Source: Leucoraja erinacea
Lineage: Eukaryota
Assembly (NCBI RefSeq): GCF_028641065.1
Contig: NC_073411.1
Coordinates: 13,392,001 to 13,456,000, forward strand
Length of the DNA stretch: 64,000 nt
Direction of reading: 5' to 3'
In this document: positions 5,901 to 64,000 of the stretch, in pieces
How positions within the stretch are numbered: position 1 is the first letter of the stretch
Layout: each line of letters opens with the position of its first letter
The notes under the pieces: model-generated
Seen by the model: the letters and a program-made list of their open reading frames with translations, nothing else
Database searches by the model: none
What the model was told of the DNA's origin: nothing
Translations under genes and position numbers: made by a program

Positions 5901-5937
5901 ATGGAATGTGCTGTCAGAGGAGGTAGTTGAGTCAGGT

Positions 5938-7313: not shown

Positions 7314-7413
7314 ACTAAAGACTTTTAACCTGGGTGAGAATTAATATTAGGCTGGACCTCTTATTAGCTGAGGATGTGCTCCTAGTTGCACCAATTCTAC
7401 CTGATGTGACGTT

Positions 7414-7780: not shown

Positions 7781-9464
7781 GATAACAAACCAATGGCAGT
7801 CAACTCAAGCCAACCACACACATCCTAAATGATCATCTCTGGATCATCTAGTCTGTCCCATGGAAATGACAGTTTGTGCACTAAAATCCTGTGTTGTGCA
7901 AGATAGCCCCATCTTGTTTCAAAGAACGTATCCTTCCATGTTCTGCGGCAAAATTATGAAGTTAAAAAGAAACTAATTTGTGCACGAGTAAAGTCATTCT
8001 GTTTAAGAGAAAAATGATTCTGTCTCCAAGAGAAAAGTAAGCGAGAGACAAACCTATGCTGTTGGTTTCAGAAAAATTCACCTTTCCCCACCCACAACAC
8101 ATACTTTTAACAACACGAGTAGAGGCGAAGCTCATGCCGTGGTCTGTAGGTTGTTTTGAAACCACATTAATGCGGAAAAACAAAATACTGTAGATACTTG
8201 TCTGAGATAAAACACAAATTTGTGACCACACTGTAGTCAGTCAGCATCTGGGAGGAGAGAAGCGGTCAACATTTCAGATTCCATGAGCTTTCATCTAACC
8301 TGAGGGGAGATGAAGAAATCTTAAGATACTGAGAAGGCAAAAGTTGATATGTGATCAGAAGAGATTAAAGGGTAAAAGAGCAATGTGAGATGGATGTGGG
8401 CCCCATATCTGAGGGAGGATGTGATTGATCCCAGGGATGTCTGGATCAACGTATGATGAGCGTTTGATGGTCCTCGCTGGAGTTTAGAAGAATGAGGGGG
8501 AACCTCATTGAAACATACCAAATAGTGAAAGGTCAGCATGAGTGGATGTGGAGGGAATGCTTCCACTAGCGTGAGAATCTAGGACCAGAGGGCATAGCCT
8601 CAGAATAAAAGGACATACCTTTAAAAAGGAGATGAGGACGAATTTCTTTAATCAGACAGTGGTGAATCTGCGGAATTCATTGCCACAGACGGCTGTGGTG
8701 GCAAGTCATTGTGTAATACAGAGATGAACAGATTAGGGGAGAATGGGATTGAGAGGGAAAGATAGATCAGCCAGGATTGAATGGCGGCGTAGACTCAATG
8801 GGCCGAATGTCCTAATTCTGCTCATGTGACTTGCAAACATGGGCGAATAGAAGAAGCAAGTCTGGAGGAGGTAAAATAGAGGAAGAATACATTTATCAGA
8901 AGATACCAAAGAAAAATTAGTTTGCTGGGAATGTGAAATGGAAAAGCCGGATTTATTGATTACCTGAAAGTGTTGAGATCAAGATCTAGTCTGGATCATT
9001 GTATGAATGAAGATATGAAAGATATTCTTTGTGATCCTGTTGAACATTGTTGCAGCATTGCAGGAGGTTAAATGTCGAGGTCAGAATGGAATTGAAACGA
9101 AAGTGAGAGAGGAAGGGAGGTTTGTGGTCAGCTTTGTGGTCGACTGAAGATCTGCACAGTAGTAATTTACAAATCTGCCCTGCAGAGGAAACCGCATTGT
9201 GGGCAATTTTTTGTGTGTGTGGGGGGGGGGGGGGGCAGGGGGAGGGGAGATTGTGGGCAACAGTAACAATGGGGGGGGGGGGGGGGGGGGGGAATATAGA
9301 TTCATAATTTTTCTACCTGGAGCATTTATTGAGATTTGGCAGGGAGAAGGGAAAAAGAGAGCTCTGCATCTCTGGTAAGGGGAAAAGAATTAGAGGGGAT
9401 GTATGGGAGACCATCTTCATCGGGAGAGTGGTGAGTACCTGGAATGCACTGCCTGAGAATAGAT

Positions 9465-9686
9465 GTGTTTAAGAAGGAACTGCAGATGATGGAAAATCGA
9501 AGGTACACAAAAATGCTGGAGAAACTCAGCGGGTGCAGCAGCATCTATGGAGTGAAGGAAATAGGCAACGTTTCAAACGTTGCCTATTTCCTTCAGTCTG
9601 AAGAAGGGTTTTGGCTCGAAACGTTGCCTATTTCCTTCGCTCCATAGATGCTGCAGCACCCGCTGTGTTTCTCCAGCATTTTTGTG
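9465..9686. mobile_element. Penelope-derived fold-back insertion
   Basis: Inverted arms with a hammerhead core at 9598-9625. TSD TGCCTGAGAATAGAT at 9450-9464 and 9687-9701. Confidence 0.8.
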
Positions 9687-9894
9687 TGCCTGAGAATAGA
9701 TTACTGATCTCCATACTTTTTCCAAGATCTGCCACAGATATGAGAGGCATATTCCAGAGAGCATAGAATAATGCTATTGCATGCCATTCTTTTCCCATTG
9801 ATAGTATTGTGATTTTGAGTGCACTTCAAATTATGGTTGGGATTAGGAAGTCTACTTTGTGTAAAGAATTGATACGAGTGCATAAACGTTATAA

Positions 9895-10114: not shown

Positions 10115-10245
10115 TAACTCAGTGTATCCCTTTGGCTGCTTCTCTTGATATGAGTTAACCCTCAAATAAAACATGGCAGAACTCTTGAGAGTTCCATCAA
10201 AACGCAGAGAGTGTGGCTTACATTTGTTTTTTATTGTCCCATCAG

Positions 10246-14287
<4,042 letters not shown>

Positions 14288-19284: not shown

Positions 19285-22200
19285 ATGTGCTGCCGCGGCG
19301 GCGGCGAGCGGGACCTGCAGGGCTCGGCAAGGCGGATGGGCGCCTCGCTGCTGCAGCAACTGTCGGCCCACGAGCGGGAGCTCGACCTCGTCTTCCTCGA
19401 CCACAGTTACGCCAAACCCTGGAGCGCGCACCCCGAGGCCGGCGGCTCCCGGCCCGCACGCAGGCTCTTCCTCACCCCGCGGCGGCACCCTGACAGCACC
19501 AGGTGAGGGGCCGAACGGCCGCGCCACCCCTTCCTCTCTCCCCACTCCCTTTCTCCTCTTCCCCCCTCCCTCTATCCCCTCCTCCCCTCATCTTTCCCCC
19601 ATCCCTCCCTCCCTCTTCCTCCCCCCATCCCTCCCTCCATCCTCTTCCCCCCATCCCTCCCTCCATCCCTCCTCCCTCTCCTCCCCCTCCCTCCCCACCC
19701 CCTCTCAACCTCCCCCCCCCTCTCCACCTCCTCCCCACCTCCCCTCTCTCCAAACTCCCCCACTCCCTCCTCTTCCCCTCCCTCCTCTTCCCCTCCCCTC
19801 CTCCCCCCCCCTCCCTCCTCTTCCCCCTCCCTCCTCTTCGCCCTCCCCTCCTCCTCCTCCCCCCTCCCTCCTCTTCGCCCTCCCTCCTCCTCTTCCCCCT
19901 TCCCTCTCCTCCCCCTCTCCATCCCCCCCTCCACCTCCTTCCCTCCCCTTCCCTCCCCCCTCCGCTTCCCCTCCTCCCCCCCCCCTCCCTTCCTCCCCCC
20001 TCCACCTCCTCCCTTCCTCCCCCCTCCACCTCCTCCCCATCTCCCCTCCATGCTGCCTGTCCTGCTGAGTTACTCCAGCATTTTGTGTCTACCTCTGAGG
20101 ATGATTTGCACTGGGGCATATAATGGATAGAAGGAATGGGTGACCTTTCGGGTCGAGACACTTCTTCAGTTTATTTCTAGCCGGTTCTGCTTTGTGTTGA
20201 TACCTGAATACATCTGAGCAACCTTGCGTTTTACAGCGACTGTGAGGTGTCTGTGGATGTGGAGACGGTAGTTCCAACACCGACCCCTCTTTACGACAAC
20301 CAGAAGGCATGGAGCGTGATGAATGAATGTGAGCGGCATGTCATCTTCGCCAGGTCAGACACGGACGCCCCGCTCCCACCTGACGACTGGGAGGAGCACA
20401 TCAGCAGGTAAGAGCTCCCCGTCACCACGTGGTGATCTCCGCGCACCTCGCCGGTAGATCGGTTACTGCATCGCTGTGCCTAGACCCACTCACTCCCCAT
20501 AGCCAACCAATCCCTGGTTCACAATCTCAAATCACGATCCAGGGGCCACAGTTCAAGAATAAGGAGTAAGCCATTTAGAACGGAGACGAGGAAACACTTT
20601 TTCTCATGGAGAGTTGTGAGTCTGTGGAATTCTTTGCCTCAGAGGGCTATGGAGGCAGGTTCTCTGGATGCTTTCAAGAGAGAGATAGATAGGGCTCTTA
20701 AAAATAGCGTAGTCAGGGGATATGGAGAGAAGTCAGGAACGGGGTACTGATTGTGCATGATCAGCCATGATCACATTGAATGGAGGTGCTGGCTCGAAGG
20801 GCCAAATGGCCTACACCTGCACCTCTTGTCTATTGTCAAAGTGCGCCACACTGTGGCGCAGCACCAGGGACCCAAGTTCCATCCTGACCTCGACCCCTGT
20901 CCGTGTGGAGTTTGTACATTTCTCCCTGTGACTGCGTGGGCTTCCTTCAGGTGCTCCAGTTTCCTCCCACATCCCAAAGACGTGCGGGTTTACAGGTTAA
21001 TTGACCCTCTGTAACTTGCCGCCTAGTGTGCAGGGGAGTGGATGTGAAAGTGGAATAACATCGAATGAGTGTGAGCGGGTGACACACACGCGTAGCGCAC
21101 TACTGGCCTTTCCCAGGGGGGGTCGGGCTGCTGCTCTGGAAACCTCACACTTGTTGAAGTAATCAAACAATAAAGACTTTGAAATCTAGAATTGTTGGGG
21201 ATTCTGGGTTTGAGATGAGGCTGTGGATTCACCAAGATCTAAATGGCAACTCTTGTGTGGTCCAATGTCTCACACTCTGGTACTTGGTACGAGTCTGCTT
21301 CATGTATGCTAGGATAGACACTGAACCTTATGCAGAAAATAATGCCACTGTGCTAGGGTACACATGACTGTAACGTCTGAAGATAGGTCTCGACCTGAAA
21401 CGTCACCCATTCCTTCTCTCCAGAAATGCTGCCTGTCCCGCTGAGTTACTCCAGCATTTTGTGTCTCTCTTGGGTTTAAACCAGCATCTGCAGTTCCTTC
21501 CTACACACTGACAGTGATGTACCGCTGACCCATTGAATGGTAGGTCAGGCGTGAAGACTGAATGGTCTCAGCTTGCTGTGCTGTGCCGCGTTACACTCAA
21601 ATCGGTTGCTGGAGTCAGAAGCTGCCGCCTCGCTGTCTGCGGCCCACCGCTCCCGTCTTCCCCGCGACACCGGGTGCTCGATGGCTGATCGCTGCTCCTG
21701 TCTCCGGCTCCACCTGACACATGGTCTCCCTCTTTCCCCCCCCCTCCAGATCAGGGTGGAGTGTGGCGCAGAACAAGCTGTTCAACAAAATCGTGAAGGT
21801 GCTGTACTCGGACCGCTTGGCCAGGCTGGCCAACGAAGGGGTGAGTGTGCGTGGTCAGCTGCCCCGGTTAATGTCGGCTCTCACTAACTCATGGATGGGC
21901 GAGAAGGGGAGGGGAGGGAGGGAGGGGGACACACACGGTCGACCAGAGCTGGCTAGCTGGATGCCTGGCACTGAGCCAGAGGCTTGGGTGTCTGACTGGG
22001 AGCGCCACATATTCTCCATATTACCTGCAAGATGGCAAGCAATGAAGTCCCCCCGGTTTTGGGAGACTGGGGGGGAAGCAAAGCACTTGGTAACGGGAGA
22101 CTGGGAACAATGATGTGCTCAGGTAGACAAAAGTGCTGGAGAAACTCAGCGAATGCAGCAGCATCTATGGAGCGAAGGAAATAGGCAACGTTTCGGGCCA

Positions 22201-25200
22201 AAACACTTCTTCAAACTGAAGGAAATAGGCAACGTTTCAGGCCGAAACCCGGAAGGGTTTCGGCCTGAAACGGTGCCTATTTCCTTCGCTCCACATAGAT
22301 GCTGCTGCACCCGCTGAGTTTCTCCAGCACTTTTGTCTACCTTCGATTTTCCAGCATCTGCAGTTCCTTCTTAAACACAATGATGTGCCCAGTTTGCTGG
22401 TGAGGAGCAGGCCCTGCCTTGCACCCCCTGCACTGCCGTGGATAGTTACTGCTCCCCTGATATCGGTGGTCACTGTGAGACCGGAAACTGTTTGCAGGCC
22501 AGCAACGAGCCGGTGCTACGGAGAATCGCAGTGGACAAGTGCGCTCGCCGCATCCGCCAGGCCCTGGCCAGCCTGAACTGGGACACCAAGCTGACGCAGT
22601 GGCTGCACACCACCCTGGTGGATACGCTCAGCCTCTCCATGCTGGCCGCGTACCTCGATGTCCTCCAGACCCTCAAGTGCAAGGTATGGATGGATGCTCC
22701 TGCTCCTCGCGCGCTGGCCCCACTGGGCTCCTCGCCCCTCTAGGACAGAGCACACAGTAATGTAAAAGGACACAGAGTGTTGGAGCAAGGGTGCCGACTC
22801 GAAACGTCACCTATCCAGAGTTCTCCAGAAATGCTGCCTGAGCCACTGAGTAACTCCAGTACTTTGTGTTCTGTTCCGAATGCTCTCTCTGAATGAGAGG
22901 TTTGCTCTGCTCCTACCTCCTTATCTTACTGGAATACACAGTTGGCGACTGCATGCAGACCCTGTTGCTGCCCTCTCGCTGTTAATCTCTCTGCCGTTTC
23001 CCGTAATGCCCAGTTTATTTAGGTGTCTAATGCCCAGAGGCTCTCTGTTCACCAAAGATCCTGTTCTGTTCCCTACACGCCCCACGTGCCGTCGGAACCG
23101 TGGTTTACTTGAGTTGACGGTGCCACCACGTGTTACCCTCATCCTCTGCTCCCTCTCTGGATGTTTTACTACAGCTGCCAACGCTGATCGATAAAATGAT
23201 CATCTCGTCCACGGCCAAGTCTGGGGCAGCCGGTGCCGAGGCCCTGCCCTTGTTGCTGAAGCGACCGTGGGATCCTGCTGTCGGAGTCTTGTCCCACAAC
23301 AAGCCCGTGAGTTACCCCGAGTCTGGTCCCACAACAAGCCTGTGAGTTACCCCGAGTCTGGTCCCACAACAAGCCCGTGAGTTACCGCCGAGTCTTGTCC
23401 CACAACATTCCCATGAGTTACACACAGGTCAGGGTGGCATCTAGGGGGATAAACACCTCTTGGAAATTTTGTGCGTCTGAGAAAAGGAATAGGGTCGAGA
23501 CTCTTTTTCCGACCCGAAACATACACCATTCCTTCTCTCCAGAGATACTGCCTGTCCCGCTGAGTTTCACCAGCATTTTGTGTCTACGTTCGATTCATAT
23601 TTGCAGGTCTTTCCCACACATTTTGACCACTACTTGAGGTTCAGTTTAGTTTAAAGATACAGCATGGCAATGGGCTCTGCCCCACCGAGTCCACATCGAC
23701 CATCGATCACCATGTTATCCCACTTTCTCACCCACTCCCTACACACCATTGACCTGCAAATACACACGCCTTTCGAATGTGGAGGGAAACCGGAGCACCC
23801 GGAGGAAACCCACGCGGTCACAGTGAGACGGTGCACACAGATAAGACCCTGTCGGGTTTTAATGCTTGTTCTCTCCCCGGCAGACTAAGGTCCCAGGTGC
23901 CCCATTGCTTCTCATCGCTCCTGGCGGCCCCACGAATAACATGGCCTCTGCCTCACGCAGGACCCGATTCTGGTTGTCCCAGCTGTCCTGTTTGGGAAAG
24001 GTCAGTGGTGTGTGTGTGTGGTGTGTCTGTTTGTGCTGTGTGTGTGTGCATGCGTGTGTGTGTGTGCGCACGCGTGTTTGTGCTGCGTGTGTGTGCGCGC
24101 GCATCTCTGTCGGATGGGGAGAGGTGATTGATCACCTTTAGTGTGTCGGCTTGGCTGGGCTGGGCTGGGCAGTAACAACGCCTTCATTCAGGGTGGGGAG
24201 GAGGGGTTGGGGTGATGAGGGATTGAGAGGGGGCAGATGTTGGGAATAGGGAACATAGGGTGCGTGGAGGAGGGGGCTGCTGGCAGGGTTGGGGCAGAGT
24301 GTGGAGGGGGGGGGGGTGCAATTTGTTTACATGGGGCAGTAGGGACCCCGTGTGGGTGGGGGCAGCCCCAGGAGTTGCCTGCGGTGCTGTGAGTGTGTGT
24401 GTGTGTGTCTGGGGGGGATGGGGAGGGGACGGTCAGGCTGGCCGCGGGCTAAGGTGTGAGTGCTGCGTGTCAGGTTCGGGTGTGAGTGGTGAGGGTCAGG
24501 GTAGAGTCGGTGTCGAGGGTGGGGCTGGCCGTGGGCGCGAGTGTGACCACTGTTCCTTGTCCTACAGGTAATCCCGGTCACCATGCACATTGTCAACGGC
24601 GGCTCTGGAGTGAGCGTGTCCCAGTGCCTGGAGCACATGATTGGGGCCGTCCGCACAAAGGTCCTGGAGGTTGGTGCTGCGATCGATGCTCCACTTAGTG
24701 ACCACAGGGGCCCCATGGAGCCTGAACCCACACAGTCCGATAATCCCACTGTCTGTCTGCTCATGGTCATTCTAAGAACATAGATCAAGTCAAGTCACTT
24801 TTATTTACGTAGCACATTTAAAAAACAACTCTCGTTGGCCAAAGTGCTTTACATTGGTAGTACATACATAAATACATACATATAGCCCTCACTCAGAGGA
24901 CATCTGAGATCATAAAATAGGTGCAGAATTAGACCATTCGGCCCATCGAGTGGGCACGCCATTTGATCATGGCTGATTTATTTTACCCTCCCATCCCAAT
25001 TCTCCTGCCTTAACGCCATAACCTTAGATACCTTTACTAATCAAGAACCTGTCAATCTCCATTTTAGAAATATCCATTGACTTGGCCTCCACTGCCGTAT
25101 GTTGCAATGGATTCCGCAGATTCACCACCTTTTGGATTAAGACATTTCTCCTTATCTCATTTTATTCTGAAGCTGTTCCCATCTGGTCCTAGACTCTCCC

Positions 25201-28200
25201 GTTACCGGAAAGGCAGCTAATGGGAGCTCTAGATGTTTACCAGGGCAGGCAAATGTGTGTTGGTCGCGATGCACCCAGTCAGTACTCTACCATACATCTG
25301 TAGAGGACGGCATCTGGATTTGCAGCGTTTGGATGTAGGGCATTTTAGTTAGCTCCCACCCAGCTCGAGGTGCCCAGTACACATTCTAATCGGTCGGTAT
25401 ATCTCTCTCTTGCAGCTGCAGACTCACTTTCCGAGCCGACCGATTGTACTGATGGGGTGGAACGTGGCTGCTCTCGTGGCTTGTCATGTAAGTAGCTAGG
25501 ACTGTGCGGTCTGGGTTCACACTTAGTAAGCTGTCTCCTTCTGATGAATTGCTCATCTCTGGTATCCTCCGTCTGGGATGAAACCATGTCCTTGTGTTAG
25601 TTTACACGGCAGCTTTGTACACACCTTACATGCTGCTTACTGAGTTCCTCCAGCGCTTTTATTTTTGTAAACCAGCATCAGCAGTTCCTTGTGTGTCCAT
25701 GTGTTCGGCTAATATTACTGCAAACTGCCGGTGCCTAAAAAACATGGGTGAAAAGCAAGCTGCTAACCGCTCAGTGAATTACAGAGATTTATTTTGCATC
25801 CCTTTCCAACTTAGGGATCTTTCGAGGTGTTTCCCAGACAATGTGAAGTAGATGCTGGTGTGTAGTCACTAGACCAGCAAGCCCCACCCCCACAACATGC
25901 AAAACCACAGTTGAGATGTGGAATAAAATTTGCTCTCCTGTGACTTGAATGGAAAGAAAAAAAGTGAATTGATCAAAACCGATTTATTATTTTCAACTTG
26001 CATTATCTGTGCATGCGTCGTGAAACGTGGCTTTGCGTTACGGGAAATTGTCCTACACGCGTTTTCACGGAGTGAACACCCCACCGAATCCGTAACGGGA
26101 GGGCTGTCCGTGCCGACACTGACTCTGCCTGATGCTGCCTTCCGCTTGTTTCTCTGCAGGTCTCGGTGATGGAGTTTGTGTCTGCCGTAGTTTGCCTCGG
26201 ATTCCCTCTTCTCACGGTAGAAGGACCAAGAGGAGTGAGTGGCCACTTGTTTAATTTCTTTTGGGGTAAAAGTATATTTGGAGGAAGCAGTGGTGCTTAA
26301 AAATGGCATGTTACTTTACACTTTGAGACATGGCTGGTAACGTGGGCCTTGGCATCATGCTTGGCACAGACATTGTGGACTGATAGGCCTGTTCCTGTGC
26401 AGTACAGTTTTATCTTCTATTTTATGAGTGATGTTCTCGAGGATAGAACAGGGTGAGTACAAAGTAACGCTCTCCCTGCACTCTGCTGTCACATACTCTC
26501 AGGGCAGGGACAGTCTGAATTGGATTTGAAATAAAACAAATTAGTAATGACTCTCGTCACGTGGAAGGTATCATGCAGAGATGGGCAGGTTGGGCCGAAG
26601 AGCCAGTTTCCAAGCTGGTAGGTTAGTGCGTTGGACTCGAGCAGGTACGGCGTGTTTGAGACTGGGTGGCCACAGCGGGTAGCAGAAACCCTGTGTGTGA
26701 GTATTTGCTGAGGGACTGGATCGGGTTACTAGCACTGTGCCCCAGCTCTCACCTCCCACCCTCCCCACATCTCACCCTCCCCACATCTCACCCTCCCCAC
26801 ATCTCACCCTCCCCACATCTCACCCTCCCCACATCTCCCCCTCCGCACCTCCCACCCTCCCCACATCTCACCCTCCCCTCATCTCACCCTCCGCACCTCC
26901 CACCCTCCCCACATTCACCGGTGCATAGAGAGGTAAACGCATCAAGCTTGTCACATTGCCACAACTGAGGGCAGTGCTGTGCTGTGCTGCTGACGGACAC
27001 TGGCTGGTGGGAGGAAGCTGTTCCTGAACTAGACTTGCCCTGTGTGTCTGGGATTCCTGAGCCCAGTCTGCCGTCTGTCACTGGGAAGGGGCAGTTCCTG
27101 AGCCAGGCTGCTGTGTGCCCCCGTGCTATCTAATACTCTGGACGTCTCTGTTCAGGATGTAGATGACCCTCTGCTGGACATGAAGACGCCCGTGCTGTTT
27201 GTGATTGGCCAGAACTCTGTGCAGTGCAATGCCGACTCCATTGAGGATTTCCGGGAGAAGCTGCGGGCTGAAAACAGCCTGGTGATAGTTGGTGGTGCTG
27301 ACGATAATCTCAGGTAACCGCGCCACTGCCATGCTGTTCCAAGCTTGGGGCCGAGGGTTCAATCCTCACACCGGGACTGTTGATGCTCCAGTCTCTGTGG
27401 TGCCAACCCCAGTGAGATTTGGCCCCTGCTTGCTCTTGGAGGTCAACTTCAAAGATCACTAAGGGCCTGTCCCACTGACGCGACCTTTCAGCGACTGTCT
27501 TCGACCTTCACGCTCCTGCACCAACTCCTGCACCTATTGTCCATGTTTCTGGCCCTGCCTTCCTTAACCCCACGGTGACGAGCTGTCTTGATGGGTCTGG
27601 GGACCAATAGACAATAGGTGCAGGAGTAGGCCATTCGGCCCTTCGAGCCAGCACCGCCATTCAATGTGATCATGGCTGATCATCCCCAATCAGTACCCCG
27701 TTCCTGCCTTCTCCCCATATCCCCTGACTCCGCTATTTTTAAGAGCCCTATCTAGCTCTCTCATGAAAGCATCCAGAGAACAGGCCTCCACCGCCCTCTG
27801 AGGCAGACCAAGGGGAGAGGGTTTAGCTGCTTGGGGGTCTCACCTCACGCTGACTTTCTCCACCGCAGGATCAGCAAAGCAAAGAAGAAGATGGAGGGTC
27901 TAACGCAGAGCATGGTGGACAGGTGCATCCAGGTGAGTCTGTCCCCTGACACACCTGTGCTGTGAGGTTGCCGTTCAGCTGGAAAGGGTGCAGAGCGGAT
28001 TTACCGCATATACCAGAACTCATGGGTCTGAGCTGTAGGGACGGGCTGTGTCGGCTGGGACTTTATTCCTTGGAGCACAGGAGGATGAGGGGTGTTTGTA
28101 TAGAGATGTATGTGATCTTTAGAGAATAGATTGGGTAAATGCACAATCTTGTGCACAGAGTAGGGGAATCAAGAACCAGAGTTAAGGTGAGAGGGGAAAG

Positions 28201-39882: not shown

Positions 39883-42800
39883 TCAATGCTTGTGAGGAAC
39901 CAGCTTGTAATGAGCCCCACAGGATGGGCAGCGCTGGGCATCGCCCTCGTGAAGCCAGAACCAGATGACTGCAGTGTTGTCCTCCTCACCTACAGGAACA
40001 AAGTCTCCATTAGTGTCGGCACCACCACATATCACCGCAGTACCAAATCAAAACACCCTTGGACATACTTCCTACCGCTCCTTGAATGGTTGGATGCAAA
40101 TGCTTTCCTTAATCACCTTTATCATTTAAATATCCCCGTTCAAATCCCTCAGTGGGCTTGAGTAGTGTTGGCACCCTCATCTCTGCACCCTGGATTCTTA
40201 CACTCTGCTTATTTCAGTCTCACTATATTATACACAGGCAGCATCTCTGGATAGGAATGGGTGACGTTTCGAGTTGAGATCTTCTCCAGACTCTGAACCT
40301 GAAACGTCACCCATTTCTTTTCCCCAGGGATGCTGCCTGTCCCGCTGAATTACTCCAGCGTTTTGTGTCTATCTTCAGTGTAAACTAGCATCTGCAGTTC
40401 CTTCCTATTCACTAAATCATAATCCCTGAGATTGAGAAAGTCTGCTTCATCCTCAAGGTAGTAACACGATACACTAGCGACTGAACCCTCACGAGTTATA
40501 CACACAAGGTACAAGGGAAAGTGAGACAGGCAGCGGATTGCATTGACAGGGCCCCCACTATCCAGGCATGAATAGCAAGGGTACATGGGCTTGGATATTG
40601 CAATGCTTGTACAGTCCACTAGTGGGCAAGCTCGGGCTGCTAGAAGACAAGCCAACTTTCCAGTCAGTCAGGATGGAATGATCTGATTTGAGCTGGAATT
40701 GGGTTGAAGTGGTTTTTTTCTGGTGGGTTTGGTCGAAGGTGGTCACTGGTCAACACCAGGACAATGACTATCAGCTGTGGGAGGTATCCCCACACTGGCT
40801 GGTGCTACTGAACTCAGTGTCCATCTGCATCAGTGTTCCTGCCCACACCAGTGCTGCCTGGGCTCGGATCCTGAGCACACGGGCACCTGTGACTCAACAA
40901 ACATCACGTCCGGTAACAGCAACCAATGGATAATGTTACTCACACACGCAGCCCACAATCCTCTGGGTGGTGATGGATGGGACAATGTGGGGGTCACTCT
41001 TTGTCCCAGCGTACTCCTTTGGTTTCAGCACATTGTAGGGATCCTGTAAGGAACGACAGAGATAGTCACTGTCTGCCTCAACATCAAGGCAGTCACTAAA
41101 TACTGAACCTTCACCCAGTTACAGGCCCTGCATCCCACCGGCTCCGCACTAACCAGCAACCTACGCATATTAACACTGTCCTACACACACCAGGGACAAT
41201 TTTCACATTTACCAAGCCAATTTACCTACATACCTGTACGTCTTTGGAGTGTGGGAGGAAACCACTGATTGTGATCATTTTGAGAGTGCCATTTTGATCT
41301 TGCATCAAATCGTTTTTTAGCTAATTCTCTCAGGAAATAAATGATGCAAACATATTTCAGACTCAATCTGTGGAATCCATAAAATTGAGAATCCTTTACA
41401 AGTGGACACAGCCCAGGCACCCGTCCAGCTAACCCACAATTAACCCACCAGGCAGATTATACCAAGCGTGAAGGACCTGTGACCACCAGGCAGTACAGCT
41501 ATGTCCACACATCTTGCCCCAAGCGCTCAAAGCCTAGTGAATCTACAGGGCCCATGCCACTAGCTGCACTCGACAAACCCAGGCTCCTTCCCTTCTCGTC
41601 TGGACTGCTTTGGATCACCAGCGTTTGCAGGGAGACACAAATTGCTGAAGTAACTCATCAGGACAGGCAGCATCACTGGAGAGAAGGAATGTGTGACAAT
41701 TCAGGTCGAGATCCTTCTTCAGACAGCGTCTGCAAGGAAATGGCCAGAGTTCCTTACGTACCTTCCCGGCTTTCATAGCCTCCATGATGATCTTTTCCAA
41801 TCCTGTTGCCTGTTCTTCATCAGTTGGGATGCCTGTAGTTCAGAAGGGAAAGCATGTCAAGAGGCCAGTAATAATGTTCATGCAGTCAGCAAGGGGGCAT
41901 GGAGGCACGAGCAACACAAGGTGTCGATCTGGGAGTAAGTGAACCTGTCACATCACAGCAGCAGAACACCACTGAATGAATCAACACTCATACCGATGCC
42001 CGAGTGGGAGATAGTGTCAGGCGAGCTGCCTCTGCTGTAACTGAAGAAGGGTCTCGACCTGAAACGTCACCCACTCCTTCTCTCTAGAGCAGTGGTTCCC
42101 AAACTTTTTTTGGCCATGCCCCACCTAATCACCTCTAAAATCCTGATGCCCCCCCCCCCCCCCCATGTGGTGATATATAATTCTTATCATAAGAGGCAGA
42201 AAGGAGACCGTTCATCATGGACAGCGGGTATGAAACCAAGTTTTAAATATTCCTCTGAATACTGACGAACTTTCTTCTTGCTTGCACCACTCATTTTAGC
42301 ACGAGCAGACAAATAAATAATTCTCAGAAAATGGATTGCTTTCCCTTGAGAGAAAACGGAGGAAATAGATATTATAAGGGTAACTTAGCAAAAGCTCTTT
42401 GAATCGCATTTCTAAATCCAATTCAATAAATAAGGTTCTCCCATGACCTCGCGCGCTTCGTGCGACGTGCATGAAGAGCGATGGCGCGGTGATTATGTAA
42501 TAACTACACAATAAAGACCTTTTTTACCCCCAAAAAATTATTTACTCAAAATAACATCTGAAACATAAACTACATATGTTTACCTGATGGAAAATCCAAA
42601 AAAATAAAAATCGAAAATTTGGACCCAGACCTCCTCAGTCGCGCTCAATTGCCCCCCTTAAAAATCAAATTTCCCCCCTGTGGGGCGTACGCCCCACGTT
42701 GGGAACCACTGGTCTAGAGATACTGCCTGTCCCACTGAGTTGCCAGCATCTGCAGTTTCTTCCTACACATTTCCTCTGCTGTAACCAATCGCAGTTCATA

Positions 42801-45800
42801 GGCTGAAGAGTCCCGACCCAAAATATATTCTGTCCACAGCCACCACACATGCTGCCTGACCCCCTGAGTTCCTCCAGCACTTTGTGTTTTGCTCAAGATT
42901 CCAACATCTGCAGTTCCATCTCTCAGATCATAGTAATTAATTCGATTACCAAGTGGCAAAAAAGAAGGCTCATTTTTTGTTGCTCCTGACAACCCAGATG
43001 TGAAAACTCTTAATGTTGTAACCAATTCACTGCAACCGACATTGCACCACACACAGAAAGCAGGCTTTAAACGCCAACATTACACCTACTTCATGCCTGC
43101 TTGTGTCGCTGCCCCCGACTGTCAGAGTAATTACTGTATAAACCGCTGCAACATGGAAAATTGCAACATTTCCTTTCCACAACTCTGGAGAACGGTTGCT
43201 ACTGCAATCGTTCCCCCCGTTCCAACCGACAGGACTTTGGAAGCTTGACCTTGCCTCATTCGAGTTTAGTTTGGGAAAGTTTATTCTCAATTTAAAGCCT
43301 TAAGGAGTTCAAAATATCTCCATGATGATAGATTGGACAGCCTCAGATCATGAGTGCATTGTGAAAGGTTTGTTCTGACAGGAAATAAAGAAATACCAGC
43401 TGTGGTCTAAACACTGACTCATCCAACCATGGGCCCAAAGCCTNNNNNNNNNNNNNNNNNNNNNNNNNNNNNNNNNNNNNNNNNNNNNNNNNNNNNNNNN
43501 NNNNNNNNNNNNNNNNNNNNNNNNNNNNNNNNNNNNNNNNNNNNNNNNNNNNNNNNNNNNNNNNNNNNNNNNNNNNNNCACAACGATGTTCTCTGCTCTC
43601 CCGTGTAGCTCTCGTCACTCTAGGTCCCAGGAACATCCTCTATAGGCAGGGGCAATCTCAGTTGTGATGGACTCAAGTTTACAATTCAGGTGCCAAACGT
43701 GCAGACAGAGAACAAAGACTCCTCCACCTGCCCTCGGTTGCAGACCAGGCACGATACACGGCTCCCTCTGTCACCAAGGCTGGCCACCTGACAAAATGCA
43801 GTACGTAGAATGCGCAGTCATGGCAGTGTGCAGGATCCGTGACCAAACTAGCAATCTAGAAATCAGTTTCATTTGCATTCCCACCATGCATAAACCTTTG
43901 TTAAAGCAACAATATCAGCAATGATAACCACGAGATCACCACAATGGCGTGTGGTCCAGCCAGCCGACCCACACCAACACAAGCAACCCTCTGTACCTTC
44001 CACAAACTGCCTCACGTCTATGTTAAAACCTCGCCGTAGGTACAATGGTCAGACCACCAACCCCAGCACCAGACACGGATACGGAAAACTTGGTCACTAC
44101 TAAAGACCTCCTTACAAACATCTGGGGACAGGTGTCTAGATTACAAACATCTGGGGACAGGTGTAAATATCCGGGGACAGGTGTCTAGATTAGTATCACT
44201 TGTCATGTCAAACTCACAGGCAACATGCAGAACCTCTTTACCGCGGGTGGGGCCACAGTCAGAGCCATCACACGTGGTGGTCCAGCTAACCCTCAACACT
44301 GCCTTGTACCCCAGCTCTACTGCCTTTAGATGAAAGGTGAACAGAAACCTGGTGTTAACCGCTCAGCTGATGGATAAATAATGAATGCTGAACATCAGTG
44401 ATACGAACAGAGGGGATTTCATGGTAGTTTATTGTTACTTGTACTGAGGTACGGTGAAAGGCTTTCTTGTTGGGATTCTAGCTGATGGACTTCAATATTC
44501 AATAGACATAGCACCAGTGCACATCCGCCACGTGCCAGATGAGGTCTGTGGTGAGTGAACAGTCACAGAATGAATGGGAGGTAGGCAAAAGTGCTGGAGA
44601 AACTCAGCGGGTGCAGCAGCATCAATGGAGGTAAGGAAATAGACCCTAGGGATTTGGCCCGAAACGTTGCCTATTTCCTTCGCCCCATCGATGCTGCTGC
44701 ACCCGCTGAGTTTCTCCAGCACTTTTGTCAACCTTCGATTTTCCAGCATCTGCAGTTCCTCCTTAAACAAAATGAATGGGCACAGCCCTGGTGGGGACTG
44801 ATGTCCCAATTCCACATCTCTACCCTGTTGCGAGGCACAAACCACACAGCAAGTGCCATGAATTCAGCAGACATCCAAGTTCCCACAACAGCTTCCATGG
44901 GCACCAGCATTGTTTTCCCACTGCAACCATTAACCTCACAGCCCAGTATATCCTTGCTCCCACCCTGATTACCATGAAGCCACACAAGCACCCTGGTTCA
45001 CCAGGATCACCAGAGGGAGATGCCATCGTGCAGATTCACAGCAAGAGCAGCATGCAGGAGACAGAGCTCCGTGTCGCAAACAACAACGGCTCCGACCAAA
45101 CCTCAGTGGCCTTACCCTTCCAGCCGTGAAAGATGGCGGGCAATTTAACACCCGTGGCAGCAGCTCCAAAGAAATGGTGGGCAGTTCAGCAGGGAAGTGG
45201 CATGGCGACTGCAAAGCCTTTCCAATCGTGTTTAGCCAGAAACGCTGAGTCTATGATCCATTGCAATTTCTTCATGATAGTTCATGATAATATTCTATAC
45301 TCCACAACCTCCTCTCCCCTCAAACCCATCCCTCCACCACCCAAACCACCCTGCCAACTCTCTTCACCCCTCACTTCCCCATCCCCACACCCTCCCTCAT
45401 GTTTGTCCTGCCCTGGTCCTCACCCTCCCCATGGTCCTCCCATCTCCCCGCTCCTGGTCCATCCACCGCCTCCACTATGGTCCTCCCAAACACCCCCCCC
45501 CCCTTCCCCTCCTCTCAGGGTCCTCCCCCCCCCCCCATGGTCCTCCCACCTCTTCCTCTATGGTCCTCCCAAAAATACCCCCCCCCCCCCCAGGGTCCTC
45601 CCACCCCTTCCTCTATGGTCCTCCCAAACCCCCCCCCCCCCCTCTCCCTCCCACCCTCATGGTCCTCCCACCCCTTCCTCTATGGTCCTCCAAAACACTC
45701 CCTCCCCCCTTCCCCCCCATGGTCCTCCCCCACCCCCACCTCCTCCTCCTCGGGCGCTTCACCTCCTATTTCCGCCGGGTGACCTTCAGGCCCGGGCCTA

Positions 45801-47012: not shown

Positions 47013-47373
47013 ACACAGAAACTAGGTGTAGGACAGGAGTAGGCTATTTGGCCCTTCCAGCCACCACCCCCATTCAATATGATCATGGCTGATCATCCAC
47101 AATCAGTACCCCGGTTTCGGCCCGAAACGTTGCCTATTTCCTTCGCTCCATAGATGCTGCTGCACCCGCTGAGTTTCTCCAGCATTTTTGTGTACCTTCG
47201 ATTTTCCAGCATCTGCAGTTCCTTCCTAAATACATCAGTACCCCTTTCCTGCTTTCTCCCCATATCCCTTGATTCATTTAGCCCGAAGAGCTAAATCTAA
47301 CTCTCTCTTGAAAACATCCAGTGAATTGGCCTCCACTGCCTACTGTGGCAGAGAATTCCACAGATTCACAACT

Positions 47374-48160
47374 CCTCCAACCTCATCTACTGTAGCCGCT
47401 GTTCCAGGTGAGACCAAGCGCAGGCTCGGCGATGGTTTCGCCGAACACCTCCGCTCAGTCCGGCTACTAAACCTAATGGACAATAGAGGAGCCGGCGTGG
47501 GGGGACCGTTGTGGAGGGGGGGAGAGAGGGAAGAACAACGGGGGACATGGCACGGGGGTACTTTGTAACTTAGTAATCACCCTTTATGTGTCGACTATTT
47601 GCATATCTTGGGTGTGCAAGCAAAGAATTTCACTGTGAATTGTCACATGTGACAATAAAGTATTCATTCACCTCCTGATTGCCAACACTTCAACTCCCCT
47701 TCCCATTCCCACAAAGGGCCGAGATGGCCTGTTTCCGTGCTGTAATTGTTATATGGTTATATGACCTTTCTGTCCTGGGCCTCCTCCACTGTCAGAGCAT
47801 AGTTCACTTGCGCAGCTTACACCCCAGCGGTATGAACATTGACCTCTCTAACTTCAAGTAATCCTTGCTTTCCCTCTCCATCCGTCCCGCATCCGAGTTC
47901 TCCGACCAGTCTGACTGTCCTCCTGATTCATTTTTATCTCTGTATGTTTCGTTGTCACCTTCTCCTAGGTAACAATAAGCTGCTCTACAATTTCCTTGTT
48001 ACATCCCCTTTGATGTCTTGGTTTCACAACTTACACTTCCTTATCTCCGTATCTCCTCCTCCCACGACTCAGCGTGAAAAAGGGTATTGACCCGAAACGT
48101 CACCCATTCCTATCCGGAGATGCTGCCTGTCCCACAGGGTTACTCCAGCTTTTTGTGTCT
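47374..48160 (+). mobile_element. Degenerate Penelope-like retroelement 3' part (GIY-YIG endonuclease remnant plus terminal repeat)
   Basis: Peptide remnants SNLIYC..RC, GETKRRLGDGFAEHLRSV, HFNSPSHSH and DLSVLGLLHCQS...SLHPSGMNIDLSNFK* (stop at 47861). They are followed by a pyrimidine-rich tract and a decayed hammerhead-like motif at about 48073-48102. A further piece, AQCKLEEQNLIFRLG, lies at about 48451-48496. Confidence 0.8.
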
Positions 48161-50504: not shown

Positions 50505-50532
50505 AACGTTTCGGGCCGAAACCCTTCTTCAG
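50505..50532 (-). ncRNA. Minimal hammerhead ribozyme core, second subfamily
   Basis: The minus strand reads CTGAAGA-A-GGGT(TTCG)GCCC-GAAA-CGTT, with a UUCG-capped stem II and a GUU triplet. Confidence 0.65.
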
Positions 50533-51700: not shown

Positions 51701-52389
51701 GTAAGGATACTGCAGTGGATGTGTTGTGTACAGCCTCGACGGGCCGATCGGCCTCCCCCTGCCCCTGCCCCTCCCGGGCGACCGAGGCGTCCTTCTGCTA
51801 CCCTGGAATGTGTTTATTGATGGGACGAATGGCCTCCCGGTCTTATTTAATGACGGTGGGGGCTAGTATCGGCTCTTCCTGCGAAATGGGGCGGAAAGGC
51901 CGCCTCCTATCCCCGAGTGACGGGCTCAGAGAGAGGAATGGACTCCTGGTGCTGCCGTGCTACAATTTGAAGTGAGGCCATTTGGCCGATCTAGTCGATG
52001 ATAGCCCTTTGCAGAGTGCTGGTCTGTTCCATTTCCTGCCTATTCTCTGCAGCTCTTTGAATAAATTTCTCTCGATTCTCCTTAAAAAAAACCTGAAGTC
52101 AACAGAGACTGCAGATGTTGGAACTAAAACAAACACATTCATAGAACAGTGCAGCACAAGAACAGGCCCTTCAGCCCACAATGTCCATGCCGAACCTGTT
52201 GCCAAGACCATCACATATCTACCTGCACTTAATCCATGTCCCTCTGAAGAAGGGTCTCGACCCAAAACGTGCCCCACATATTTTCTTTAAACCTTGTTCC
52301 TCTCACCTTAAAGATCCTTTAGTATTTAGTTCCATCCTGTCCTTGTGGGCAATGATACCATGTCTAAAAACATATCCTCACATTTCAGT

Positions 52390-52417
52390 CTGAAGAAGGG
52401 TCTCGACCCGAAACGTC
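52390..52417 (+). ncRNA. Minimal hammerhead ribozyme core (Penelope-associated), intact copy
   Basis: CTGAAGA-A-GGGTC(TC)GACCC-GAAA-CGTC: CUGANGA box, stem II, GAAA box, palindromic ACGT stem III and GUC cleavage triplet. Confidence 0.7.
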
Positions 52418-52845
52418 ACCTATTTCCTTCGCTCCATAGATGCTGCCTCACCCGCTGAGTTTCCCCTTCATTTTTGTCCACCACACATTTCCCCTGCATC
52501 TTTCAAACATCACTTTAAATGTCTGAAGAAGGGTCTAGACCTGATGTATTCAAGAGAGAGTTAGATTTAGCTCTTAGGGCGAAAGGAAGCAAGGGATATG
52601 GGGGAGAAAGCAGGAACAGGGGGACTGATTTTGGATGATCAGCCATGATCATATTGAATGGCGGTGCTGGCTCGAAGGGCTGAATGGCCTACTCCTGCAC
52701 GTATTTTCTATGTTTCGATGAAACATCACCCGTTCCTTCTCTCCAGAGATGCTGCCTGTCCCGCTGAGTTACTCCAGCATTTTCTGTCTATCTTCAGTGT
52801 AAACCAGCATCTGCAGTTCCTTCTAACACACTTTAAATGTAATAT

Positions 52846-52997
52846 GGTGGACAAAAAACTGGAGAAACTCAGCGGGTGAGGCAGCATCTATGATCTATGA
52901 TCTATGCAGCATTCATAGATGCTGCCTCAACCGCTGTCTTTCTCCAGGTTTTTGTCTACCTTCGATTTTTCCAGCATCTGCAGTTCTTTCTTAATCA
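52846..52997. mobile_element. Penelope-derived fold-back insertion
   Basis: Inverted arms with (TCTATGA)n at the turn. TSD TTAAATGTAATAT at 52833-52845 and 52998-53010. Confidence 0.75.
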
Positions 52998-53730
52998 TTA
53001 AATGTAATATTGAGTCATACACGACACAAACACATGGGCACATCAGTCCAGAGAGAGTCTGTACTCACATTCAAATTTACACAAATCCCACCAATAACAT
53101 CATTAACTCCATGCAAGCCTGCTAACTCCACGCAGAGAGCACCCGAGGTTAGGATCAAATCGGATTTAGATAAAAACATAGAAAATAGGTGCAGGGGGAG
53201 GCCATTTGGCCCTTCGAGCCAGCACCGCCATTCATTGTGATCATGGCTGATCATCCCCTATCAATAACCCGTGCCTGCCTTCTCCCCATATCCCTTGACT
53301 CCACCAGCTCCAAGAGCTCTATCTAACTCTCTCTTAAATCCATCCAGTGACTTGGCCTCCATTGCCCTCTGTGGCAGGGAATTCCACAAATTCACAACTC
53401 TCTGGGTGAAAAAGTTTCTTCTCACCTCAGTCTTAAATGGCCTCCCCTTTATTCTAAGACTGTGTATGGCCCCTGGTTCTGGACTCGCCCAACGTTGGGA
53501 ACATGTCTGTGGACCTGCCTCTTGTGAATCGGGAATAACTGACTGCCTTTGCTCTTCCCACTCAGGAGATCCCACCCAGATGTTGGGGAGACGACAGACA
53601 CGGTGGTGAGGGCCTGTCCGCGGGCGCTCTTGCTTCAGGTGAAGAGGAGGCGGTGTGGGAGATGGGCTGAAGGACAGACGGAGGGTCGGACGGAGGCCAG
53701 TGGAGGACGATCCGCTCACCGGCCGGGAGG

Positions 53731-60540: not shown

Positions 60541-60999
60541 CCCGCCCGCGGCTCCCGGTCTCTCCCCCCCACCTCCTCTCTAATTCTATCCCCTCTCCCT
60601 CTCCCTTCCCCTCTCTTCCCCCCGGGGAAGTAGCAACACCGAATCCTCCCACCGTCTCCTCTGAGCTTTTGTTGTTTTTTTCCTTCAGCAGCGCCGCCAA
60701 TTGCATCATCGCCCATTCACTCACTGCCCGCCCTCCGGGAACCCCCCACCCCCCCCATCTTAACGCGGACCTTCCTCTCCCGAGCCCCCCCCCCCCCCCA
60801 TCCCATCTCAACTGCCCCCCCTACTCTTGCCTCTCCACCACCCCCCCCCCCCCCCCCCCCACTCTTCTCCCCCCCCCCCCCCTCTTACCCCCCCCGCCCC
60901 CCCAACTCTACCCCCCACCCCACTCTTTCTCCCCCCCCCACTCCCCTCCACCTCCCGAATTGTGCTCAGTTAATGAATGAATTAGAAGATTTGTTTGTT

Positions 61000-61226
61000 T
61001 AAGAAGGAACTGTAGATGCTGGAAAATCGAAGGTAGACAAAAGTGCTGGAGAAACTCAGCGGGTGCAGCAGCATCTATGTGGAGCGAAGGAAATAGGCAA
61101 CGATTCGGGCCGAAACCCTTCAGGAAGGAAATAGGTAACGTTTCGGGCCGAAACGTTGCCTATTTCCTTCGCTCCACATAGATGCTGCTGCACCCGCTGA
61201 GTTTCTCCAGCTTTTTTGTGTACCTG
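61000..61226. mobile_element. Penelope-derived fold-back insertion
   Basis: Inverted arms. TSD AGAAGATTT(G/A)TTTGTT at 60984-60999 and 61227-61242. Confidence 0.8.
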
Positions 61227-62707
61227 AGAAGATTTATTTGTTCAGTTTTTATATTATTGATAGTTGCTCCCAACATTTGAGTATATTGGTGGTGGGAAAC
61301 GTAACTTAACAGAAGATTGAGGGGGGATCTTATAGAAACTTACAAAATTCTTAAGGGGTTGGACAGGAAGATTATTCCCGACGTTGGGGAAGTCCAGAAC
61401 AAGGGCTCACAGTTTAAGGATAAGAGGGAAGACTTTTAGGACCGAGATGAGGAAATCATTTTTTTACACAGAGAGTGGTGAATCTGTGGAATTCTCTGCC
61501 ACAGAAGGTAGTTGAGGCCACAGTTCATTGACTATATTTAAGAGGGAGTTGGATGTGGCCCTTGTGGCTAAAGGGATCAGGGGGTATGGAGAGAAGGCAG
61601 GGATGGGATACTGAGTTGGATGATCAGCCATGATCATATCAAATGGCGGTGCAGGCTCGAAGGGCTGAATGGCCTACTCCTGCACCTATTTTCTATGTTT
61701 CTATGTAACATTTAATTGACATAATGATACCTTACTGCCCACAAATAAAAACTGAGAGTAAAATATTGCAAAAATGTAAATTCTGATTTGTGGTTTGCGC
61801 GATGAAGGGGGATAGATTGCTGAACACGTTTTGTTTTTGTAAAATAATCTAAAGCACTTTGTGGTCCGGGTGCATTTTGAACAGCGAACTCAACCTCCAA
61901 TTATTTAAACCTAGCTATTGAATGAATCATTTGGTTTAAACAATAATAATTGAGTGATGATATTGTGCAATTGTGTAGTGTATTAATTATATAATAACAG
62001 TGGGCGTTGTTGCAAAGCGGAAATGCAACTAGTAATGTTGTGTGTGGTATGAGTGATCACCAGAGCAAGTACCTTGTGGAAATAATCAGCAGATATTGCC
62101 ACTTCCTCTCCAGGCCCGCCACTTGTTTTATGTATATTTTTTTTAATTGTCACTGTATGTCATGTTGTCACTTGCGGGCAGGGCACCAAGGCAAATTCCT
62201 TGCATGTGAATACTTGGCCAATAAACTTATTCACTTACCATTGACCAGAACACATGGGCCACTCTACACCCAGGTCACAAGTTGACAAGTTCCCACACAA
62301 GAGATTAGTGTGCAAAACTTGAGCACATGGTATTCGTTTTGTTGTTTGTCTTTTGCACAAAAGTCCGCGAGCATTGCCACTTTCATTTCACTGCACATCT
62401 CGTATGTGTATGTGACAAATTGACTTGACTTGACTTGGTGGTAGGGTATTGACATGGGATAGATTGGCAGACAGGAAGCAAAGAGTAGGAATTAACGGGA
62501 CCTTTTCAGAATGTCATGCAGTGACTAGTGGGGTGCCGCAAGGCTCAGTGCTGGGAACCCAGTTATTTATAACATCCATTAGTGATTTAGACAAGGAGAA
62601 TTAAAAGTTAAAGTAACATCTTCAAGTTTGTGGATGACACAAAGCTGAGTGGCAGTGTGAGATGCAATGAGAATGCTATGAGGCTGCAGGGTGACTTGGA
62701 TAGATAG

Positions 62708-62936
62708 TGTGTTTAAGAAGGAACTGCAGATGCTGGAAAATCGAAGGTATACAAAAATGCTGGAGAAACTCAGCGGGTGCAGCAGCATCTATGGAGCGAA
62801 GGAAATGGGCAACGTTTCGGGCCGAAACCCAGAAGGGTTTCAGCCCGAAACGTTGCCTATTTCCTTCAGTCTGAAGAAGGGTTTTGGCCTGAAACGTTGC
62901 TTATTTCCTTCGCTCCATAGATGCTGCTGCACCCGC
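62708..62936. mobile_element. Penelope-derived fold-back insertion nested in a CR1 RT fragment
   Basis: Inverted arms with a hammerhead core at 62871-62898. TSD TGACTTGGATAGATAG at 62692-62707 and 62937-62952; removing the insert restores CR1 LQGDLDRL. Confidence 0.8.
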
Positions 62937-64000
62937 TGACTTGGATAGATAGGTTGGGTGAGTGGGCAGATTGCAGTATAATGTGGATAAATGTGAGGTT
63001 ATCACCTTTGGTGACGAGAACAGGAAGGCAGATTATTATCTGAATGGCGTCAAGTTGGGGAAAGGGGAGGTACAACGAGACCTGGGTGTCATCACCTCTC
63101 CATCTTCTAGAGTTGCTGCCTGACCCGTTGCATTACGTAAACATGGAACATACAGCACAGGAAGTCTTATCTGCCTGCACATCCCTTCAATTCCCTGCAT
63201 ATACATAGAAACATAGAAAATAGGTGCAGGAGTAGGCCATTCGGCCCTTCGAGCCTGCACCGCCATTCAATATGATCATGGCTGATCATCCAACTCAGTA
63301 TCCCATACCTGCTTTCTCTCCATACCCACTGATCCCTTTAACCACAAGGGCCACATCTAACCCCCTCTTAAATATAGCCAATGAACTGTGGCCTCAACTA
63401 CCCTCTGTGGCAGAAAGTTCCAGAGATTCACCACTCTCTGTGTGAAAAATGTTTTTCTCATCTCGGTCTTAAAGGATTTCCCCCTTATCCTTAAACTGTG
63501 ACCCCTTGTCCTGGACTTCCCCAACATCGGGAACAATCTTCCTGCATCTAGCCTGTCCAACCCATTAAGAATTTTGTAAGTTTCTATAAGATCCCCCATC
63601 AATCTCCTAAATTCTAGTGAGTATAAGCCAAGTCTATATCCGGCATATCCATGCGCCTCTCCAGTATCTTAAATGCCACTATCGTATCTGCCTCCACCAT
63701 CATCCCTGGCAATGTGTTCCAGGCACCCACCTCCCTCTTGTGTGGGGGGAAAAAATATCTGCATATCTCCTTTAAACCTTGCCCCTCTCACCTGAAAGCT
63801 GTGCCCTCGGGTATTTGATATTTCTACCCTGGGGGGGAAAGATTCTGGCTGTCTACCCCATCTGTGCGGCTCATTAGTTGACAAAATTCTATCAAATCAC
63901 TCCGGCGTTGCTGAGAAAGCTATCCAAGTCTTTTTATTTTTCATTTCACTGCACGTCTCGTATGTGTATGTGACAAATAAACTTGGCTTGACTTGAAGTC

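What the first reader, a model, noticed from the sequence alone, without database searches (positions are those of the whole stretch)
52390..52417. Minimal, probably dimer-dependent hammerhead ribozymes in two subfamilies with pairing-compatible variation
Seen: the core CUGAAGA-A-stemII-GAAA-CGUH is intact at 9598, 21377, 42041, 52390, 62871 (+) and 50532-50505 (-). Decayed versions occur at about 13077, 17967, 35200, 37351, 48073, 48263, 52244 and 59371. Subfamily A is GGGU-CUCG-ACCC...GUC|AC and subfamily B is GGGU-UUCG-GCCC...GUU|GC. The differences keep pairing (U-A vs U-G in stem II and at the first stem I pair), and copy 21377 swaps G-C for A-U. Stem III is the loopless palindrome ACGU. 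Established: Penelope-associated minimal hammerheads have such palindromic stem III and can work as dimers. Inference: stem I is very short here, so monomer activity is doubtful. Sense-strand copies in introns (9598 likely in UBE2D4 intron 1, 21377 in KANSL3, 52390 in the NPY receptor 5' intron) could pair in cis or trans and cut pre-mRNA.
Basis: partly seen in the sequence, partly recalled or inferred. Interest (0 to 1): 0.7.

Follow-up and report, generated by a model that had tools for sequence, protein, structure and literature searches.

The report
Minimal hammerheads in Penelope retrotransposon ends
This motif is the miniature hammerhead (self-cutting RNA) sequence in the end repeat of a known kind of jumping gene, present as tens of thousands of perfect copies in this genome; the scattered copies are decaying and likely do not cut the host's gene transcripts.

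Summary
The motif is real and at the stated places. It is the minimal type I hammerhead in the pseudo-LTR of a Penelope-like retrotransposon with a Neptune-type Cys linker: 29 of 30 long copies join RT and GIY-YIG sequence to this core on the same strand. The genome holds 40,789 exact cores. The anatomy fits published Penelope minimal hammerheads; stem I is only 2 bp. The claimed covariation does not exceed shuffles. Dispersed copies show no excess core conservation, and catalytic G12 is lost by CpG decay. One ORF-linked set hints at core conservation (P=0.06). Copies run through the cut site, and RNA reads show no ends piling up there. The three intron placements hold, but cutting of host pre-mRNA is unsupported. 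A 345-bp tandem unit offers a natural dimer substrate. This scan found the same family before at other places in this genome. New member of a known kind; low interest.

The parts
52390..52417 (+). Minimal type I hammerhead core: CUGAAGA, extra A, 4-bp stem II with CUCG loop, GAAA, ACGU palindrome, predicted cut after C at 52417; best-preserved copy in the window
52386..52490 (+). Solo pseudo-LTR fragment carrying the core; 2-bp stem I (52388-52389 with 52418-52419) and about 70 nt of tail
52244..52271 (+). Decayed core 146 nt upstream (G12 lost, G at the cut position, no tail); not a plausible dimer partner
9598..9625 (+). Core with two G-U pairs in stem II, inside an inverted repeat (about 9461-9714) predicted to bury it; first intron of a UBE2D-type gene
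21377..21404 (+). Core with A-U in place of G10.1-C11.1; KANSL3 intron
42041..42068 (+). Core with G-U at 10.1-11.1 and no stem I pair
50505..50532 (-). Core of the UUCG/GUU type with one contiguous stem I pair
62871..62898 (+). Core with two G-U pairs in stem II, inside an inverted repeat (about 62706-62941)
51701..53565 (+). GT-AG 5' intron of a rhodopsin-family receptor gene that contains 52244, 52390 and 52523
   Evidence: one contig joint in run X1; splice dinucleotides
47230..47568 (+). Frame holding a short piece like the element's GIY-YIG region
   Evidence: translation compared by eye; no Pfam hit

Best explanation
The motif is the minimal type I hammerhead sequence in the pseudo-LTR of an abundant Penelope-like retrotransposon, and the window's copies are decaying, 5'-truncated or inverted insertion products that likely do not cut host RNA. 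Shown: the core lies about 100-130 nt behind the GIY-YIG end of the ORF on the same strand, and in a partial tandem it heads the next unit's 5' UTR; most copies are only core plus a 70-105 nt tail. Inferred from published Penelope work: reverse transcription starts inside this 5' UTR at two sites, which gives the two 3' ends, and runs through the uncut hammerhead. Inferred: the core was kept in the active source elements, where it would cut weakly, as a dimer through ACGU/ACGU or with help from the element's protein; after insertion it mutates like its neighbours.
For: 29 of 30 long copies carry the core behind RT/GIY-YIG sequence; RVT_1 E=1.4e-4 and GIY-YIG E=2.6e-4, both under Pfam's cut-off; Cx2-5CxxC motif in 29 of 30; partial tandem in L131. 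409 fragments in 790 kb sampled, 161 with an opposite-strand partner within 60 nt. Non-CpG mismatch rates in dispersed copies: box 1 149/929 (16%), GAAA 46/514 (9%), tail 897/8212 (11%); G12 34/121 (28%). G12-to-A in 8 of 29 ORF-linked copies vs 54 of 464 other CpG Gs (P=0.02). Of 386 hits, 179 start at or before the core's first bases and 13 within 3 nt of the cut site. No read begin/end pile-up at the cut site in 5 RNA-type runs. Predicted monomer folds hide the core: P(stem II) at most 0.36, P(stem I) at most 0.001. Literature: PMC4209133, PMC11167929.
Against: In the 29 ORF-linked copies, non-CpG core positions differ less than the rest: 5/288 vs 350/8793, 12.2 expected by base (P=0.06; L060, with a deletion in the core, was dropped first). 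This fits selection in source elements but does not exclude some later constraint. The tail was the anchor, which lowers its rate, and a cluster of 28 truncated copies was dropped. The reads come from many loci and perhaps a related species, and poly(A) libraries see 5'-OH or cyclic-phosphate ends poorly. Folding energies ignore tertiary contacts. No cleavage was measured.
Confidence: 0.85

Rival explanations
1. Intact intronic copies pair through ACGU in cis or trans, or are chaperoned by the element's protein, and cut host pre-mRNA.
For: 40,789 exact cores; about 56,000 of 12.9 million reads lay on a family member at 85% likeness; 9598, 21377 and 52390 are sense-strand intronic; the anole Penelope hammerhead cuts only with protein (PMC11167929).
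Against: Stem I is 2 bp or less in all 17 best copies of the sample; the dimer topology scores -6.1 vs -25.7 kcal/mol for the best fold; 23 of 190 cores have a same-strand core within 500 nt; neighbour 52244 is dead; no read ends at the cut site; G12 decays freely; published dimers cut weakly (PMC4209133).
Confidence: 0.05
2. The working ribozyme context is a non-autonomous tandem unit of about 345 bp (retrozyme-like) that places two cores on one RNA for dimer cleavage and perhaps circularisation.
For: L171-L190 share a unit of core, tail, the ORF's first bases and a pyrimidine-rich stretch; two recognisable same-strand cores 337-392 nt apart in 7 of 20 by the strict scan, plus 2 more seen in the alignment; 2,542 matches to its ORF-start region, which autonomous copies share. 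A preprint reports such units averaging 363 bp in one chondrichthyan (10.64898/2026.07.22.740005).
Against: Copies are 73-81% identical to L010, mostly 1-1.5 units, and most cores are mutated; no read ends at either cut site; go-back joints of one period cannot be told from tandem DNA. It does not explain the solo copies in this window.
Confidence: 0.2
3. The sequence is kept mainly as a DNA or protein-binding signal (internal promoter or RT/endonuclease recognition), and ribozyme chemistry is vestigial in this family.
For: 109 of 176 core-reaching copies have no element sequence upstream, so a 5' boundary sits at the core's front edge; the sequence there fits an initiator consensus (recalled, not tested); hammerhead mutants did not affect insertion in vitro (PMC11167929); some Penelope clades lack hammerheads (PMC8557442).
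Against: All catalytic positions, the extra base and G10.1-C11.1 are kept in the four cluster consensuses, apart from CpG decay at G12 in one (0 of 10 non-CpG core columns vary vs 16 of 54 tail columns, P=0.055).
Confidence: 0.25

Closest known systems
Minimal type I hammerheads in pLTRs of metazoan Penelope-like elements (Cervera and De la Pena 2014, PMC4209133; text parts 1-2 of 4 read, supplements not seen)
   Same: Core boxes, extra base between 9 and 10.1, G10.1-C11.1, palindromic 15.2-16.2, no helix III loop, place in the pLTR, mostly solo copies, thousands per genome.
   Different: Stem II 4 bp (7-8 bp in Schistosoma), stem I 2 bp (4-5 bp typical there; 2 bp reported for D. virilis); about 40,000 exact cores vs 4,000-9,000 reported for coelacanth and Xenopus.
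Neptune/Nematis-type EN+ Penelope-like elements (PMC8557442, passages)
   Same: RT, Cx2-5CxxC linker, C-terminal GIY-YIG, partial tandems, inverted 5' copies, optional 30-40 bp tail.
   Different: No tree was built, so Neptune vs Nematis is not settled; the long copies seen were 79-91% alike and none had a frame spanning the whole ORF in the pieces read.
Poseidon element PAc of the green anole (PMC11167929; text parts 1-2 of 4)
   Same: Hammerhead at the pLTR-ORF junction, two 3' end points, no RNA-seq ends at the cut site.
   Different: There the ORF starts at stem II; here the likely start codon is about 140 nt behind the cut site. Protein-assisted cleavage was shown there, not here.
Non-LTR retrozymes of animals (PMC7229834, passages; bioRxiv 10.64898/2026.07.22.740005, parts 1-2 of 5 and passages, supplements closed)
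   Same: A tandem unit of about 345 bp with one hammerhead per unit exists in this genome.
   Different: The window's copies are solo or inverted pLTR pieces, not tandem arrays; the core is minimal, not canonical; circles not shown.

Membership tests
Minimal type I hammerhead of Penelope-like elements | CUGANGA and GAAA boxes, U16.1-H17 | tested here: met
Minimal type I hammerhead of Penelope-like elements | Extra base before stem II, G10.1-C11.1, paired stem II | tested here: met
   52390 meets all; G-C in 141 of 209 sampled copies
Minimal type I hammerhead of Penelope-like elements | Palindromic 15.1-16.1 with no or tiny loop III | tested here: met
   ACGU; CG at 15.2-16.2 in 101 of 209, the rest mostly CpG decay
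Minimal type I hammerhead of Penelope-like elements | Helix I (4-5 bp typical, 2 bp in D. virilis) | tested here: inconclusive
   2 bp at 52390; 11 of 17 best sampled copies have 2 bp, none more
Minimal type I hammerhead of Penelope-like elements | Location in the pLTR of an RT + GIY-YIG element | tested here: met
   29 of 30 long copies; partial tandem L131
Hammerhead ribozyme (activity) | Site-specific self-cleavage | not testable with these tools
   no assay; no read-end pile-up
Hammerhead ribozyme (structure support) | Compensatory base-pair changes above chance | tested here: not met
Rfam hammerhead families | Covariance-model match | tested here: not met
   no hammerhead among 39 matches up to E=5
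Neptune/Nematis-type PLE | Cx2-5CxxC linker between RT and EN | tested here: met
   motif in that region in 29 of 30 copies
Neptune/Nematis-type PLE | RT phylogeny | not tested
   no reference PLE proteins at hand; PDB search empty
Non-LTR retrozyme | Tandem units each with a hammerhead | tested here: not met
   window copies are solo or inverted; a related 345-bp unit elsewhere meets it in part

The most novel reading that the evidence does not exclude
Tens of thousands of intact cores, many inside transcribed introns and UTRs, form a dispersed set of latent cut sites that pair through their ACGU palindrome or are switched on by the Penelope protein, so that element activity cleaves host pre-mRNAs across the genome.
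Probability: 0.05. Interest if true: 0.7.

Novelty: new member of a known kind. Interest (0 to 1): 0.2.

Why it matters
As found, it adds one very abundant vertebrate family to a known class. With 40,789 exact cores and roughly a million fragments (extrapolated from 409 in 790 kb), it is a good natural data set for the open question of what Penelope hammerheads do: copy ends say the template RNA was mostly uncut. If host transcripts were cut, it would be a new genome-wide cost or control route of a retrotransposon, but the evidence here points away from that.

Tried and rejected
Rfam scan: no hammerhead hit, only hairpin look-alikes from inverted copies. Longer stem I with bulges: none beyond 2-3 contiguous pairs in the six copies, apart from a flank-made helix at 50532. 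Splicing idea: the 345-bp unit has a GT donor-like site at the ORF start (G 19 of 20, T 19 of 20) and a YAG just before stem I, as for the D. virilis intron end in PMC4209133. The exactly joined form occurs 3 times in the genome, of which 2 are the arms of one insertion and 1 is unrelated, against 2,542 unjoined; a non-splice control junction occurs 73 times (not normalised for copy number); no such joint among the 15 listed of 1,193 read joints. So splicing is neither shown nor excluded. The exact-match version gave 2 hits, one an inversion junction. The general descriptor had a fault (4 hits) and was redone: 29 hits, all this family, so no second family was available for deep covariation. 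The look-up of sequencing runs listed no holder on record as RNA. PDB search of a 601-aa RT piece: nothing. Lunse et al. (PMC5785218) was not held; known only through its citation in PMC6765202. Literature searches found no paper on this family in skates or rays; Repbase and Dfam could not be checked, and supplements of PMC4209133 and of the 2026 preprint may list it.

Full report
Observation. The 28 bases at 52390-52417 (+) read as described. The window holds 25 cores within 7 mismatches, 14 on + and 11 on -, and 63 fragments of the surrounding repeat. The loose two-box pattern alone is near chance (9 vs 4.25), but the family motif has 40,789 exact matches in the 2.19-Gb genome and the reversed control none. 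Rfam has no matching hammerhead model.

What it belongs to. Copies that extend upstream run into a GIY-YIG coding end and RT sequence on the same strand. Of 30 long copies fetched, 29 carry the core behind the ORF; L060 has a deletion in it. Pfam gives RVT_1 (E=1.4e-4) and GIY-YIG (E=2.6e-4), both under the curated cut-offs. A Cx2-5CxxC motif lies in the linker region in 29 of 30; PMC8557442 (passages) names this linker for Neptune and Nematis. L131 is a partial tandem: ORF end, core, tail, then the next ORF's start. Copies end at two preferred points about 70 and 105 nt behind the core, like the optional tail that PMC11167929 traced to two reverse-transcription start sites. In 79 stretches of 10 kb taken at round coordinates, 409 fragments were found, 161 of them next to an opposite-strand partner, the known inverted arrangement. 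That the host is a cartilaginous fish is my recall and earlier notes of this scan, not a call result.

Anatomy. The core meets the features that PMC4209133 lists for Penelope minimal hammerheads: extra base before stem II, G10.1-C11.1, palindromic 15.2-16.2. Stem I is 2 bp at 52390. In the 790-kb sample 38 copies have both boxes and a paired stem II, 23 also ACGU, 17 also G-C, 11 of these a 2-bp stem I and none a longer one. Predicted folds pair box 1 and the 5' strand of stem II with the bases behind the cut site; stem II has probability at most 0.36 and stem I at most 0.001. The dimer topology for 52390 scores -6.1 against -25.7 kcal/mol for the best fold. These models ignore tertiary contacts and undervalue all hammerheads.

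Covariation. In 24 window copies there is one two-sided change in 144 cells, that of 21377; 461 of 500 shuffles do as well. In 209 sampled copies, two-sided Watson-Crick changes in stem II number 10 against 6.65 expected (P=0.14), and A-U at 10.1-11.1 is not clearly enriched (P=0.09). U-A to U-G is one-sided. The A/G states at 11.4 and 1.1 are linked (124 AA, 31 GG) but 40 copies mix them, and tails fall into at least four clusters.

Of 409 hits 314 covered the tail; after dropping a cluster of truncated copies and keeping those bracketed upstream, non-CpG mismatch rates were 16% in box 1, 9% in GAAA and 11% in the tail; G12, in a CpG, 28% (the tail was the anchor, which lowers its rate). In the 29 ORF-linked copies G12 changed to A in 8, more than other CpG Gs (54 of 464, P=0.02), and only 4 pass the strict test, one of them after an insertion column was filtered out. 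Against my reading: their non-CpG core positions differ at 5 of 288 versus 12.2 expected (P=0.06), and the four cluster consensuses vary at 0 of 10 non-CpG core columns versus 16 of 54 tail columns (P=0.055). The simplest account is selection on the core in source elements and decay after insertion.

Signs of cutting. If cut RNA were the usual template, copies would begin at the cut site. Of 386 hits, 179 begin at the front of the core, 133 within it, 13 within 3 nt of the cut site and 61 beyond. Laid reads show no begin/end pile-up at 52417 or at either core of a tandem unit. These reads come from many loci, perhaps a related species, and from poly(A) or single-cell libraries, so the test is weak. 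PMC11167929 reports the same absence in anole, cleavage only with the element's protein, and no need of it for insertion. PMC4209133 reports no monomer and low dimer activity.

Host genes. 9598 lies in the first intron of a UBE2D-type gene, 21377 between KANSL3 exons, and 52390 in a GT-AG intron joined out in one contig. With about one fragment per kb here, on both strands, intronic copies are expected. The only same-strand neighbours of 52390 are dead (52244, 52523). In the sample, 23 of 190 cores have a same-strand core within 500 nt.

A tandem derivative. A unit of about 345 bp (core, tail, ORF start, pyrimidine-rich stretch) recurs in L171-L190. It is the natural dimer substrate and resembles the retrozymes that a 2026 preprint reports for one chondrichthyan (mean 363 bp). 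It has GT and YAG signals with the YAG at the 5' end of stem I, but the joined form is one insertion against 2,542 unjoined matches, and a control junction is commoner. Splicing stays untested.

Verdict. A new, very abundant member of a known kind. Shown: sequence, element context, copy number, decay, lack of covariation. Inferred: uncut template, weak dimer or protein-assisted activity in source elements, inert dispersed copies. Earlier notes of this scan reached the same family at other places. Interest 0.2.

Noticed in passing
L196-L197; 2,612, 9,568 and 12,943 bases upstream of window position 1: Three similar 24-nt first-coding-exon candidates (MALRRIQK, MAKRRILK, MAHRRINK, each followed by GT) face only one set of downstream UBE2D-type exons at 10240-14290; possibly alternative or duplicated first exons.
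   Followed up: partly
L171-L190 (for example L172, G000:C24:24837578-24837960, minus strand): Non-autonomous unit of about 345 bp with one hammerhead per unit, a GT donor-like site at the ORF start and a YAG directly before stem I, preceded by CTGAC/CTAAC variants.
   Followed up: partly
L193/L194 (G000:C16:10014979-10015265): One inverted insertion whose two arms both lack exactly the GT-AG stretch; a spliced retrocopy or a microhomology jump.
   Followed up: yes
window 9461-9714, 22113-22383, 60992-61232, 62706-62941: Long palindromic pLTR insertions, several with a shared internal partial repeat of the core; they would give long double-stranded RNA in transcripts.
   Followed up: partly
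window 52386-52417: The front edge of many solo copies fits an initiator-like sequence, with motifs at +18 to +33 resembling downstream core-promoter elements (from memory, not tested).
   Followed up: no
L172:1540-1600 in run X22: Reads antisense to the hammerhead end in A-runs after an AATGAATAAA-like stretch; the antisense strand may supply poly(A) sites or internal priming.
   Followed up: no
window 15149-15651 and 26718-26941: Tandem arrays of 21-nt and 16-nt units.
   Followed up: no
window 43444-43578: Run of 135 N; not examined.
   Followed up: no
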